Positions 44,301-47,300 of a stretch of DNA of 64,000 bases are shown here, piece by piece. Position 1 is the stretch's first letter. Every line of letters begins with the position of its first letter. A program made the position numbers. Source of the DNA: Escherichia coli (GTDB lineage: Bacteria > Pseudomonadota > Gammaproteobacteria > Enterobacterales > Enterobacteriaceae); the NCBI RefSeq assembly GCF_022846255.1, contig NZ_AP025682.1; one strand, given 5' to 3'.

Positions 44301-47300
44301 CCTTGTTCTGCCAGAGTCTGGCGAACAGAGGTAATTAGATATGGATCGATAGTACTGCTCTGGTCATCAGGTAAATGTCTTTCAGACATATCAGCTCCTT
44401 TGCACGGAAATAATGCCACAGTCACAACAAACCCGAACCCACTATAATTTATTTATGCTAAATCAATGGGTTGTAACAAAATTTTTAATGAATATAAAAC
44501 CATGGTCAGTCCATGCTTATATGCAGGACTTATCACCTTCTTATTAAGTCGCAATGTCTCATGGAGGTGCGAAGATGCTGCAATATTACAGGCGAGAAGG
44601 GGAACCAAATTTTGCCCACCTATTTAACACACCCCTACATTATGAACAAGGAATTTAGGATTTTTATCATTTATTAAAATGTTTCCCACTTGACTATTAA
44701 GACCAAAAACAATTTATCAATTGATTATTTCCTTGTAAAAAAAGAACGTATAACTATGTTATTAATAAATAAAACACGCAAATAATGGTGATGTTGTTTT
44801 GTGATTAACTATTTAAGTGTGGCATAATAAACAGGTTGACAATTTCCATGTAAAGAAGAGGAAAATAATAAAATTTTAACGGTGACTATTGAATGATATG
44901 ATAGTTGTGGTGTTGATTATTTCTGGTAATAAATGCGGAATTAAATCTGGCCGGATTGTATTTTTGCTATATCTATTTTTCAGGAGATTATTATTAAATA
45001 GAAAAATAACAATGGTGATTATCTCCGGTTGAGCTGGAGTCACGTATGCCAGCGAGTGCTTTCTTCCGGGCCTTCCTTCACTTCAGAGAAAGAGCCTATG
45101 GAAAAGAGGCAATCATCAGGCTCTTTTTGAGTCATATGCGCCGATAATCAACTGTCTTGAACGTAAAAATTATGGAGCAACATGATGCTACGATTCATTT
45201 CACTCTTCGTTCTTTCTGAGCATTGCGTTCAGGATGGTCAGCAATTTACGCATACAGTCAACCAGCGCCACTTTTTGGGTTTTTCCGGCTGCTGGCAGAT
45301 GCATGTAAAACGCCTTTATCACCGGATTAAACCAGGTTACCACAAGCGCTGCCATGTGCAGGGCTGCTCTTGCCTCCGTACGCGCACTGGCGTCGTTCGG
45401 CCAGCAGATATGTGTGGGATAACAGGGATGTTATGTGAACTGAACTGTGTTTTGTTAGCGGGGGATGTTTATTGATGATTCGGGAGTGTTTAAGACCTGA
45501 TGGCGTTATGCTCCCAAGTTTATTTTATATAAAGATCCAAAAGCAAAAACCCGCCTTGTGGGCGGGTTCTTAAGAATTAGTGGTGCCGGACTCGGAATCG
45601 AAAATTTCTTTTATCATATTGATATTAATGCAATTTGTTTGGTTTGATTAAAAATGTACCCTCAATTATACCCGCAGTCCCTTTTGATATCGAAAGGGAA
45701 TCACACTCGGGATCAGGCTGATAGCACAGAAGGAAAGTACCTGGCTATTATATCGTTAATTCTGTCAATCAGTTCCAGCCTTTTGAAAGTGATGTGTGCA
45801 GATCCCTTCTTAAAGTATTTAATGATGAACATCTCGTCTTCATAGCGCTCTTTACCCTGAACGGACTGGATGTGACCATCCAGACGAATAGTGATGTTTT
45901 CCCGGTTGTCGGGGATCGGTTTGCCGCTGAACAGATGTAGCATTCTTTCCAGGTCGACGAGTCGGTCAGTCTGTTGCCCGGTGATAAGATGAAACCCCCA
46001 CCGGTCCCACCTCACCAGGTTGTTGACGATAATTTTACTGCCAAATTTGCAGGGGCAATTGGTTTTGTAATTCCAGCTCAGTCCCCTGAAGACGTTGATC
46101 ACCCCTCGCTCAAACACCTCATCCTTATTCTGGTGTAGTTGTTCAAATGTGATCAGAATGTTCGCTTCACTGATTTCCGGAAAATTATCGTACTCCAGTG
46201 ACCGGTACCATGTATCACGGGCCTGTGCATCCATTAAGGAAAGCATCCCTGAACGTTGCATCAGGTCACGCCAGATTTCGCGATCGAGATTGCGTGTGAT
46301 GGCTTTCATTGCGGTTTCCGGTTTCTCCATCAGCCAGCAGCCGCAGCGAAAATCCTGTTTCATGGCCCAGCCCGGGGCGGCTTTACCGCCAATACTTTCT
46401 GTCATTGCTGATATTTCAGCCAGTTGCCGGATAAGTGTGTCGATTTGCAGCAGTGTACTCTTTCGTACAGCCAGAATGTGGCGGATACTGGTTGAGCAGA
46501 TAACGTCCGTATGCCCGGTGACCACTTCCGGACGGGAGATTGTGATGTCTGACATTATCGGTTTCCCTTTTGGTTTATAAACGAAAACGCCAGCCCTGTT
46601 CAGGCTGACGTCAGTGGAATGAAGTATGGTGAGTGATATTTACCGGTTCTGGTGCAGAAGCTGCAGGTGACGAAGAGTACGGACATCCTCCCGGGCCTGT
46701 TCGATACAGGGCAACAGTGCTGCCGAATCCGTTTTATCCTCATCGTTGTCAAAGATAATTCCCGATTCGCAGTCGATATTGTCCTGCAGCCACGCAATGA
46801 GGATATCCAGCGCTGTTTCAGTGGTTAATGGCATCACGCTCTGTATCACTGTATTGTCTTCCGGCAACTGATGAGGACTGGCAGAAGTCGCCGGTGTTTC
46901 GGTAGCGTCACGTTCATCCACCACGCGGAGTGAATAACCGTTTTCAGCGACCTTGTTAATCAGTTCAATGAGATTAACACCATCGACGTCAACGACAATT
47001 CGCCCCATGTTCAGCGCCTGCACGTTAACGCTGTCGGCTTCCAGCGTCAGGGCCAGTTTCATTGTTTCGCCTCCGGATGCTTACCCAGAGTAATGTTATT
47101 TACTGTTCGGTAATTGTCGCGGGTCATCAGGCCGGTCGCCCTGCGAGCCCGGAGGATATCGATGCTGTTTATTAACTGAGAGCGGGTACAGGCGCTGAAT
47201 CCCGGCTGGTCGGTACGCACCAGCGCGTATTTTTCCACGAGAAAGTTCACCGCATCACACAGTGAAATGCCTGCCTCAATATGCTGCTCAATCACACGTT

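What the first reader, a model, noticed from the sequence alone, without database searches (positions are those of the whole stretch)
45541..45602. Lone tRNA-Phe 3'-end copy plus orphaned tRNA terminator marks an island boundary
A 22-bp near-exact copy of the tRNA-Phe 3' end sits without the rest of the tRNA. Immediately on the non-island side is a strong hairpin plus U-run oriented like the tRNA, as expected if the ancestral pheV terminator was split from its gene by island integration. All CP4-type genes lie on the other side. This defines the distal att site precisely.
Basis: partly seen in the sequence, partly recalled or inferred. Interest (0 to 1): 0.55.

Follow-up and report, generated by a model that had tools for sequence, protein, structure and literature searches.

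The report
Far end of pheV genomic island
This is the well-known right-hand attachment site (attR) of the Escherichia coli pheV genomic island: a 22-base leftover copy of the tRNA-Phe 3' end followed by the tRNA's original terminator. It is real and correctly read, but ordinary.

Summary
Window 45581-45602 (minus strand) is TTCGATTCCGAGTCCGGCACCA. That is the last 23 nt of E. coli tRNA-Phe with one G missing. It occurs once in a window that holds no tRNA gene. The next 48 nt (45580-45533), including the hairpin and T-run, are identical to the sequence after pheV in K-12. CP4-44-like flu/yee genes lie only on the other side.

The 22-mer is letter for letter the published attR of many GI-pheV islands, including PAI V of strain 536. 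In the closest complete genome the island part is 99.5% identical to the window. There, an intact pheV, a P4-type integrase gene (frameshifted) and yqgA lie about 58 kb further on. Empty-site genomes exist both with and without the kps capsule locus.

Two caveats apply. The source genome beyond base 64000 could not be retrieved. Also, the "non-island" side is only 48 bp of ancestral DNA, followed by an IS110 remnant and the accessory kps cluster.

One extra point: the missing G appears to belong to the island rather than to decay. This places strand exchange in the last few bases of the tRNA gene. A rare 75-nt pheV "scar" allele exists in at least 9 genomes.

Novelty: already known. Interest: low.

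The parts
45581..45602 (-). attR core: a 22-nt direct repeat of the pheV 3' end (T-loop to CCA) lacking one G of the GGG run
   Evidence: Identical to the published GI-pheV attR TTCGATTCCGAGTCCGG-CACCA.
45533..45580 (-). 48 nt of native pheV 3' flank, orphaned from the tRNA. It contains the intrinsic-terminator hairpin (45544-45572) and a T-rich tail (45534-45543).
   Evidence: Identical to K-12 L004 2443-2490. Terminator scan. Fold.
45603..45712 (-). Non-coding end of the island, about 110 bp. It travels together with the repeat in islands at both pheV and pheU.
   Evidence: L002, L006, L007 and L008 share it up to the repeat.
45713..46555 (-). Last island gene, encoding a DUF4942-domain protein
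   Evidence: ORF list. RefSeq annotation of near-identical genomes.
46640..54585 (-). CP4-44-like yee/flu module: DUF957, DUF5983 remnant, cbtA, cbeA, yeeT, radC/yeeS, antirestriction, DUF932, Ag43/flu, yeeP-type GTPase
   Evidence: Ag43 1987 bits; RadC; GTPase. Collinear with K-12 CP4-44.
54752..64000 (.). Further island cargo, running off the window: LysR regulator, alpha/beta hydrolase, MFS transporter and gene remnants
   Evidence: L002 annotation; 99.5% identity to the window on the island side.
45200..45382 (-). C-terminal remnant (60 codons) of an IS110-family transposase, at the start of the kps-side accessory block that begins at 45532
   Evidence: Translation. Annotation.
29290..45532 (.). 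kps (group 2 capsule) cluster plus AT-rich spacer. It replaces about 100 bp that separate the pheV terminator from yghD in K-12.
   Evidence: K-12 homology breaks at 45533 and resumes at 29289. Annotation. Region 2 is 29% G+C.

Best explanation
Window 45581-45602 is the distal attachment site (attR) of a genomic island integrated into the tRNA-Phe gene pheV. The island is of the GI-pheV / PAI V536 type.

A P4-type tyrosine integrase recombined the island's attP with the 3' end of pheV. The island supplies a new 3' end and its own terminator to the tRNA at the proximal junction (attL, outside the window). The displaced original 3' end of pheV and its native terminator are left at the far end of the island. 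That is what is seen here. On the minus strand the order is: (pheV-int, beyond base 64000) ... cargo ... flu/yee module ... DUF4942 gene ... 110-bp island end ... 22-nt repeat ... 48 nt of native flank with terminator ... IS110 remnant ... kps ... yghD.

Shown here: the sequence identities, the empty sites, the portability of island end plus repeat, and the match to the published attR.

Inferred: first, that the source genome carries the intact pheV and integrase about 40 kb beyond the window. Second, that the missing G belongs to the island's half-site, so strand exchange lies 3' of the G-run, within about the last 7 bp (GGCACCA) of the tRNA gene. Third, that the orphaned terminator has no remaining role other than possibly stopping read-out from the island end.
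For: - Repeat and native flank.
- Published attR with identical sequence in APEC O1, S88, ED1a, H10407, 536, 55989, 042, REL606 and others: (PMC11537424, Table 1). The same paper describes 536_GI-pheV as carrying pix and pgtABCP downstream of intP4, with a 23-bp imperfect right repeat.
- The architecture kpsF - truncated 22-bp pheV copy - PAI-V - intB - pheV, with excision between the repeats, is described in PMC10272209.
- Nearest complete genome (82.0312): intact 76-nt tRNA-Phe(GAA), same strand, next to yqgA. A tyrosine-integrase gene lies beside it, annotated as frameshifted, with Arm-DNA-bind_3 / Phage_int_M / Phage_integrase domains in its longest reading frame (389 aa). pix-like fimbriae and pgtABCP lie between it and the repeat, about 58 kb away. 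No other copy of the core is present.
- Empty sites: K-12 has pheV-terminator-yghD. MS 57-2 has pheV-terminator-IS110 remnant-kpsF.
- Among 5426 complete E. coli genomes, about 1290 carry the same island end, repeat and terminator.
- Divergence from 82.0312 drops across the junction, from 2.0% on the kps side to 0.5% on the island side. Only 19 differences remain on the island side outside two mosaic patches.
- Island-borne G deletion: the GG repeat is joined to three different resident right flanks. These are pheV K-12 type (window, L008), pheV B2 type (L002) and pheU type (L006, L007). The corresponding unoccupied tRNA genes all have GGG (L004, L005, L012).
- Sister attR types differ from the tRNA only in their 5' part and are perfect over TCCGGGCACCA.
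Against: - The window ends 18.4 kb into the island. The partner site, the integrase and the intact pheV of the source genome were not seen, and the source genome was not found in the collections searched.
- In the nearest relative the integrase gene is annotated as frameshifted, so that copy may no longer be mobile on its own.
- The island is mosaic. The repeat may therefore have been made by an ancestral CP4-like element rather than by the present assembly as a whole.
- Against the crossover inference: the repeat begins exactly at the first T-loop base, which is what a T-loop crossover would give (general model recalled from Williams 2002, not checked here). In addition, at least 9 genomes carry a full pheV with GG followed by the native terminator, and at least 4 carry a perfect GGG repeat. 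So exchanges 5' of the G-run do occur.
Confidence: 0.9

Rival explanations
1. The repeat is the attR of an older CP4-44-like element. The present ~58-kb island is a composite built later by insertions, tandem integrations and module exchange. On this view the repeat is not the cognate partner of the integrase now next to pheV.
For: GI-pheV islands are mosaics whose flu and yee modules have separate histories and high SNP density. The window shows mosaic patches at about 48 kb and 59 kb relative to 82.0312. The same yee/DUF4942 end plus repeat terminates very different islands, including LEE-type islands at pheU.
Against: All intP4 alleles differ by only 4-6% and target the same tRNA end. Any of them would therefore recognise this site. 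No internal copy of the core separates sub-islands in 82.0312. This is a refinement of the main explanation rather than a contradiction of it.
Confidence: 0.25
2. The missing G is simple mutational decay of the orphaned chromosomal tRNA fragment after integration, with the crossover in the T-loop. It then spread with flanking DNA by homologous recombination.
For: The repeat begins exactly at the T-loop. The orphaned fragment is under no selection. 75-nt pheV alleles with GG exist at empty sites in three different contexts, as this model predicts for excision.
Against: The GG repeat is found with three different resident right-flank haplotypes whose empty counterparts are all GGG. Only the top 9 of about 1850 empty-type sites match the GG version perfectly, whereas nearly all occupied sites are GG. 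Sister attR types have T-loop mismatches that are incompatible with an overlap there.
Confidence: 0.2
3. The 22-mer is a pseudo-tRNA fragment left by a deletion or IS-mediated rearrangement that truncated pheV. It is not a site-specific recombination product.
For: An IS110 remnant lies 150 bp away. Some papers speak loosely of a 'truncated pheV'.
Against: The fragment boundary is identical in more than a thousand genomes and at pheU as well as pheV. An intact pheV is regenerated at the other island end. The IS110 remnant is also present at empty sites, so it is unrelated to the truncation.
Confidence: 0.02
4. Chance similarity to the tRNA.
For: None.
Against: Chance predicts 0.01 matches. The adjoining 48 nt are identical to the K-12 pheV flank.
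Confidence: 0

Closest known systems
GI-pheV / PAI V536 of E. coli (attR TTCGATTCCGAGTCCGG-CACCA; Table 1 of PMC11537424)
   Same: The attR sequence is identical. The position is the same, between the flu/yee module and the kps locus. The nearest relative has the same pix and pgtABCP cargo next to intP4.
   Different: The host background differs: the core part of the window is at most 97.6% identical to any complete E. coli genome. The capsule region 2 differs from K15 (glf, GT2 genes). Some cargo differs (LysR / hydrolase / MFS block).
PAI-V next to the K1 capsule locus in CC95 (PMC10272209)
   Same: The layout is the same: kpsF - 22-bp pheV copy - island - intB - pheV. That paper infers excision between the two repeats.
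   Different: Different capsule type, and different cargo (ireA, papGII there).
Cryptic prophage CP4-44 of K-12
   Same: The yeeP-flu-yeeS-yeeT-cbeA-cbtA-yeeW module is collinear at 86-96% DNA identity.
   Different: CP4-44 sits at another chromosomal site and lacks this att site. The window's module also carries DUF932, antirestriction, DUF957 and DUF4942 genes.
LEE-type and other islands at pheU
   Same: The island end and the GG repeat are identical.
   Different: The target is the twin gene pheU. The right flank is the resident pheU downstream sequence with the yjdQ integrase remnant and cadC.
she PAI / SHI-1 of Shigella flexneri at pheV
   Same: It is inserted at pheV and carries flu and yee modules like those of GI-pheV. 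From memory it is bounded by an imperfect 22-bp repeat of the pheV 3' end, with Int/Rox-dependent excision.
   Different: The cargo differs (pic, set, sigA). The repeat sequence was not compared here.

Membership tests
tRNA-integrated genomic island att site (GI-pheV, P4-type integrase) | A direct repeat that equals the 3' end of the target tRNA gene | tested here: met
   22 of 23 nt, with one G missing..
tRNA-integrated genomic island att site (GI-pheV, P4-type integrase) | Sequence beyond the repeat equals the sequence that follows the tRNA at an unoccupied site | tested here: met
   48 of 48 nt identical to the K-12 pheV downstream sequence. Empty sites are seen in K-12 and in kps-positive MS 57-2.
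tRNA-integrated genomic island att site (GI-pheV, P4-type integrase) | Repeat sequence matches the attR reported for the family | tested here: met
   Identical to TTCGATTCCGAGTCCGG-CACCA in Table 1 of PMC11537424.
tRNA-integrated genomic island att site (GI-pheV, P4-type integrase) | Intact tRNA gene plus an adjacent tyrosine integrase at the other end, in the same orientation | tested here: inconclusive
   This end lies outside the window and the source genome was not found. It is met in the nearest relative 82.0312: tRNA-Phe(GAA), then an integrase gene with Arm-DNA-bind_3, Phage_int_M and Phage_integrase domains, annotated as frameshifted.
tRNA-integrated genomic island att site (GI-pheV, P4-type integrase) | Island end and repeat move as a unit, and identity with other islands stops at the repeat | tested here: met
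   The same end plus repeat is joined to the pheV flank (with or without kps) and to the pheU flank.
tRNA-integrated genomic island att site (GI-pheV, P4-type integrase) | Integrase-dependent excision giving attP circles and a restored attB | not testable with these tools
   Reported for related islands in the literature. Natural empty sites and 75-nt scar alleles are indirect traces.
Intrinsic (Rho-independent) terminator | G+C-rich hairpin followed by a U-run, downstream of and co-oriented with a transcribed gene | tested here: met
   Stem of 12 pairs (6 G-C), loop of 5, T-rich tail; fold of the surrounding 76 nt, -23.3 kcal/mol. It is the conserved sequence after pheV in K-12. Termination activity itself was not tested. 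Here it no longer follows a tRNA.
CP4-44-type flu/yee module | Collinear yeeP-flu-yeeS-yeeT-cbeA-cbtA-yeeW genes | tested here: met
   Collinear blocks at 86-96% identity to K-12 CP4-44. Ag43 equivalog 1987 bits; RadC.

The most novel reading that the evidence does not exclude
The one-base deletion in the repeat is a fixed part of the island's own half-site, not decay. On this reading, normal integrase-mediated exchange occurs within the last ~7 bp of pheV (GGCACCA) and restores a perfect tRNA on excision. Rare exchanges within the 17-bp left block instead transfer the deletion into pheV. They leave a 75-nt tRNA-Phe allele with a defective acceptor stem, seen at empty sites in at least 9 of 5426 complete genomes. 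The reciprocal product would be an island with a perfect 23-bp repeat, seen in at least 4 genomes. Such scars would be natural markers of past island loss, and island loss by this route would cost the cell one of its two tRNA-Phe genes.
Probability: 0.5. Interest if true: 0.3.

Novelty: already known. Interest (0 to 1): 0.13.

Why it matters
The site fixes the exact distal end of a virulence-associated island next to the capsule locus. That helps in delimiting the island, in designing excision PCRs and in typing pheV islands. It adds nothing new to how such islands work, because the same attR sequence and architecture are already published for many E. coli strains. Two minor points have some value. 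The island is nearly identical to that of a human urinary isolate, yet it sits in a background whose core part of the window is at most 97.6% identical to any complete E. coli genome, which suggests recent horizontal spread. Comparing the GG and GGG states across flanks also gives a cheap way to locate the crossover and to recognise excision scars.

Tried and rejected
- An ungapped search for the full 23-nt tRNA end found nothing, even with up to 3 mismatches. The copy differs by an indel, and the 22-mer search finds it.
- I tried to identify the source genome by scanning genome contigs with a 120-mer from the glc region. The scan hit only Escherichia sp. E1V33 and E. whittamii, both about 94% identical to the window, so neither is the source. 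The would-refute test on the source genome therefore stays open.
- No complete E. coli genome matches the window exactly. The best identity is 99.4% over the island part and 97.6% over the core part.
- NCBIfam gave no hits for the small yee-module proteins. Their names come from RefSeq annotation of near-identical genomes.
- The G+C profile shows no sharp step at the att site, so composition alone would not have located the boundary.
- A literature search for the tRNA-sublocation model did not return the original paper. That model is cited from memory only.
- I rejected pheU as the target: its downstream sequence differs.
- I rejected an IS110-mediated truncation: the remnant is also present at empty sites.
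- The perfect-GGG-repeat class rests partly on an assembly with many frameshifted genes (MB51). It should be treated with caution.

Full report
**1. Observation**

Reading the region shows, on the minus strand...GAAATT TTCGATTCCGAGTCCGGCACCA CTAATTCTTAAGAACCCGCCCACAAGGCGGGTTTTTGCTTTTGGATCT.... The 22-mer at 45581-45602 occurs once in the window, against 0.01 matches expected by chance. It is the last 23 nt of E. coli tRNA-Phe, from the first T-loop base to CCA, with one G of the GGG run missing. An ungapped search for the 23-mer therefore fails. ARAGORN finds no tRNA in the 64 kb.

A terminator-like hairpin follows on the same strand. It spans 45572-45544 with 12 pairs and is followed by a T-rich tail. 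The surrounding 76 nt fold at -23.3 kcal/mol, z = -3.2.

**2. What the flank is**

In K-12 MG1655, pheV is followed by CTAATTCTTAAGAACCCGCCCACAAGGCGGGTTTTTGCTTTTGGATCT and then by about 100 bp and yghD. Window 45580-45533 is identical to those 48 nt. Homology with K-12 breaks at 45533 and resumes at 29289, in yghD. K-12 pheU has a different downstream sequence. The site is therefore pheV, and the hairpin is pheV's own terminator, now separated from its gene.

The 16.2 kb between 29290 and 45532 is the kps group 2 capsule cluster. It runs kpsF-E-D-U-C-S, then a low-G+C region 2 (29% G+C), then kpsT/M. An AT-rich spacer and a 60-codon IS110-family transposase remnant (45200-45382) complete the interval.

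**3. What lies on the other side**

To the right of the repeat come a 110-bp non-coding island end and then the following genes: DUF4942, DUF957, a DUF5983 remnant, cbtA, cbeA, yeeT, radC/yeeS, an antirestriction gene, DUF932, Ag43/flu and a yeeP-type GTPase. Window 46808-54202 is collinear with K-12 CP4-44 at 86-96% identity. Further right lie LysR, hydrolase and MFS cargo genes and gene remnants, up to the window end.

**4. The partner site**

The window stops 18.4 kb into the island. No complete E. coli genome is identical to the window. A scan of species-representative genomes hit only relatives about 94% identical. The source genome's partner site could therefore not be inspected.

The nearest genome is the urinary isolate 82.0312, which aligns at 99.0% over window 36505-64000. 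In it the island continues for about 58 kb in total. It passes sugar-utilisation genes, pgtABCP and a pix-type fimbrial operon. It ends at a tyrosine-integrase gene that is annotated as frameshifted. The longest reading frame of that gene (389 aa) has Arm-DNA-bind_3, Phage_int_M and Phage_integrase domains. Next to it lie an intact 76-nt tRNA-Phe(GAA), in the same orientation as the repeat, and yqgA.

After that tRNA comes an island-borne hairpin and T-run (AATTCATATCAACGGACCTCCACGGAGGTCCGTTTTT) in place of the native terminator. No further copy of the core, even with 3 mismatches, lies between the two ends.

**5. Comparative evidence that this is a recombination junction**

A 201-nt probe across the site sorts 5426 complete genomes into clean classes:

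- Island end, repeat, terminator and kps side: about 1290 genomes, counted together with the next class.
- Island end, repeat and terminator followed by K-12-like yghD, for example O157:H7 strain LSU61.
- Island end and repeat followed by the pheU-type flank, an integrase remnant and cadC, in islands carrying LEE-associated effector genes (EspG, EspS).
- Intact pheV, terminator and kps side: an empty site in a kps-positive strain, MS 57-2.
- Intact pheV and terminator, K-12-like.

Aligned, the shared sequence of the occupied classes ends exactly at ...CACCA.

Divergence from 82.0312 also changes across the junction. It is 2.0% on the kps side (180 differences in 9.0 kb) and 0.5% on the island side. 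Only 19 differences remain in 18.4 kb once two mosaic patches are excluded. The core part of the window (glc, sslE) is at most 97.6% identical to any complete E. coli genome. The island is therefore much more closely shared than its chromosomal background.

**6. Comparison with what is known**

The 22-mer is exactly the attR listed for many GI-pheV islands: TTCGATTCCGAGTCCGG-CACCA in APEC O1, S88, ED1a, H10407, 536, 55989, 042, REL606 and others (PMC11537424, Table 1). [quoted passage not shown] It also describes flu and yee modules related to CP4-44.

PMC10272209 describes the layout kpsF - truncated pheV (22-bp repeat) - PAI-V - intB - pheV. It infers repeated excision between the repeats. 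A review cites work in which island integrases excise PAIs of strain 536, PAI V536 among them, as circular intermediates. The finding is a further instance of a published site.

**7. The missing G**

The GG form of the repeat is joined to three different resident right flanks:

- pheV K-12 type, CTAATTCTTAAG (window, L008).
- pheV B2 type, CTATTCTAAAG (L002).
- pheU type, AATTCATAT (L006, L007).

The unoccupied counterparts of all three have GGG (L004, L005, L012). Sister attR types (TTTCATTCCGATTCCGGGCACCA and others) differ from the tRNA only in the 5' part. The simplest reading is that the left part of the repeat, including GG, comes from the island's attP. Strand exchange would then lie 3' of the G-run. 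A 7-bp overlap, GGCACCA, fits all the junctions. This is an inference.

Two facts count against it. The repeat begins exactly at the T-loop. And two rare classes exist:

- At least 9 genomes have a complete pheV body with GG followed by the native terminator. The gene is annotated as a 75-nt tRNA-Phe, and the allele occurs in three different contexts.
- At least 4 genomes have the island end with a perfect GGG repeat. One of these assemblies looks error-prone.

ARAGORN can model the 75-nt allele only by shifting the acceptor stem by one base. The predicted fold has a bulged acceptor stem. The two rare classes are what the reciprocal products of an occasional exchange within the 17-bp left block would look like.

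**8. Verdict**

The feature is the already-described attR of GI-pheV / PAI V, with the orphaned pheV terminator. Interest is low. The only mildly new points are the crossover inference and the natural scar alleles.

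Noticed in passing
window 29290-45532: Relative to K-12, the kps capsule cluster replaces about 100 bp between the pheV terminator and yghD. The junction lies exactly 48 nt after the CCA end. The same junction (TGGATCT|TTATATAAAATAAAC) is present at occupied and empty sites in other strains.
   Followed up: partly
window 45200-45382 (-): A 60-codon C-terminal remnant of an IS110-family transposase lies between the pheV terminator and kpsF. It is also present in kps-positive genomes with an empty pheV site, so it belongs to the kps block and not to the island.
   Followed up: yes
window 1-20000 versus 45603-64000: The core part of the window (glc, sslE) is at most 97.6% identical to any of 5426 complete E. 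coli genomes. The island part is 99.5% identical to a human urinary isolate, and nearly identical outside two patches. The source looks like an under-sampled Escherichia lineage carrying a recently shared island.
   Followed up: partly
window 47990-48999 and about 59000-59999: Differences from strain 82.0312 cluster in two patches: 62 in the 48-kb bin (radC/yeeT region) and 11 in the 59-kb bin. The rest of the island is nearly identical. These look like recombination patches in the yee module.
   Followed up: no
L013 3028-3102, L014, L015 (other genomes): A 75-nt pheV allele lacks one G of the acceptor stem and is followed by the native terminator. It occurs at island-free sites in at least 9 complete genomes from three different contexts (with kps, with gsp only, with a large deletion). 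It is probably an excision scar.
   Followed up: partly
L012 2150-2627 (K-12 pheU): K-12 pheU is followed by the island-type hairpin and T-run (AATTCATATAAACGGACCTCCACGGAGGTCCGTTTTT) and by the integrase remnant yjdQ. This is the same type of sequence that follows pheV in island-bearing strains. The 3' flank of K-12 pheU is thus itself a relic of an old island.
   Followed up: partly
window 45090-45101: A 12-nt insertion (AAGAGCCTATGG) relative to strain 82.0312, in the AT-rich spacer upstream of kpsF.
   Followed up: no
window 32000-36999: kps region 2 has a very low G+C content (29-34%), against about 50-58% in regions 1 and 3 and the neighbouring gsp genes. By annotation of related genomes it encodes glf, GT2 glycosyltransferases, an acyltransferase and a nucleotide-sugar dehydrogenase. 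The capsule type was not determined.
   Followed up: no
window 45665-45693 (-): A promoter-like site (TCGATA, 17-nt spacer, TATAAT; 10 of 12 matches) lies in the non-coding island end and points towards the repeat and the orphaned terminator. The count is no higher than in shuffled sequence.
   Followed up: no
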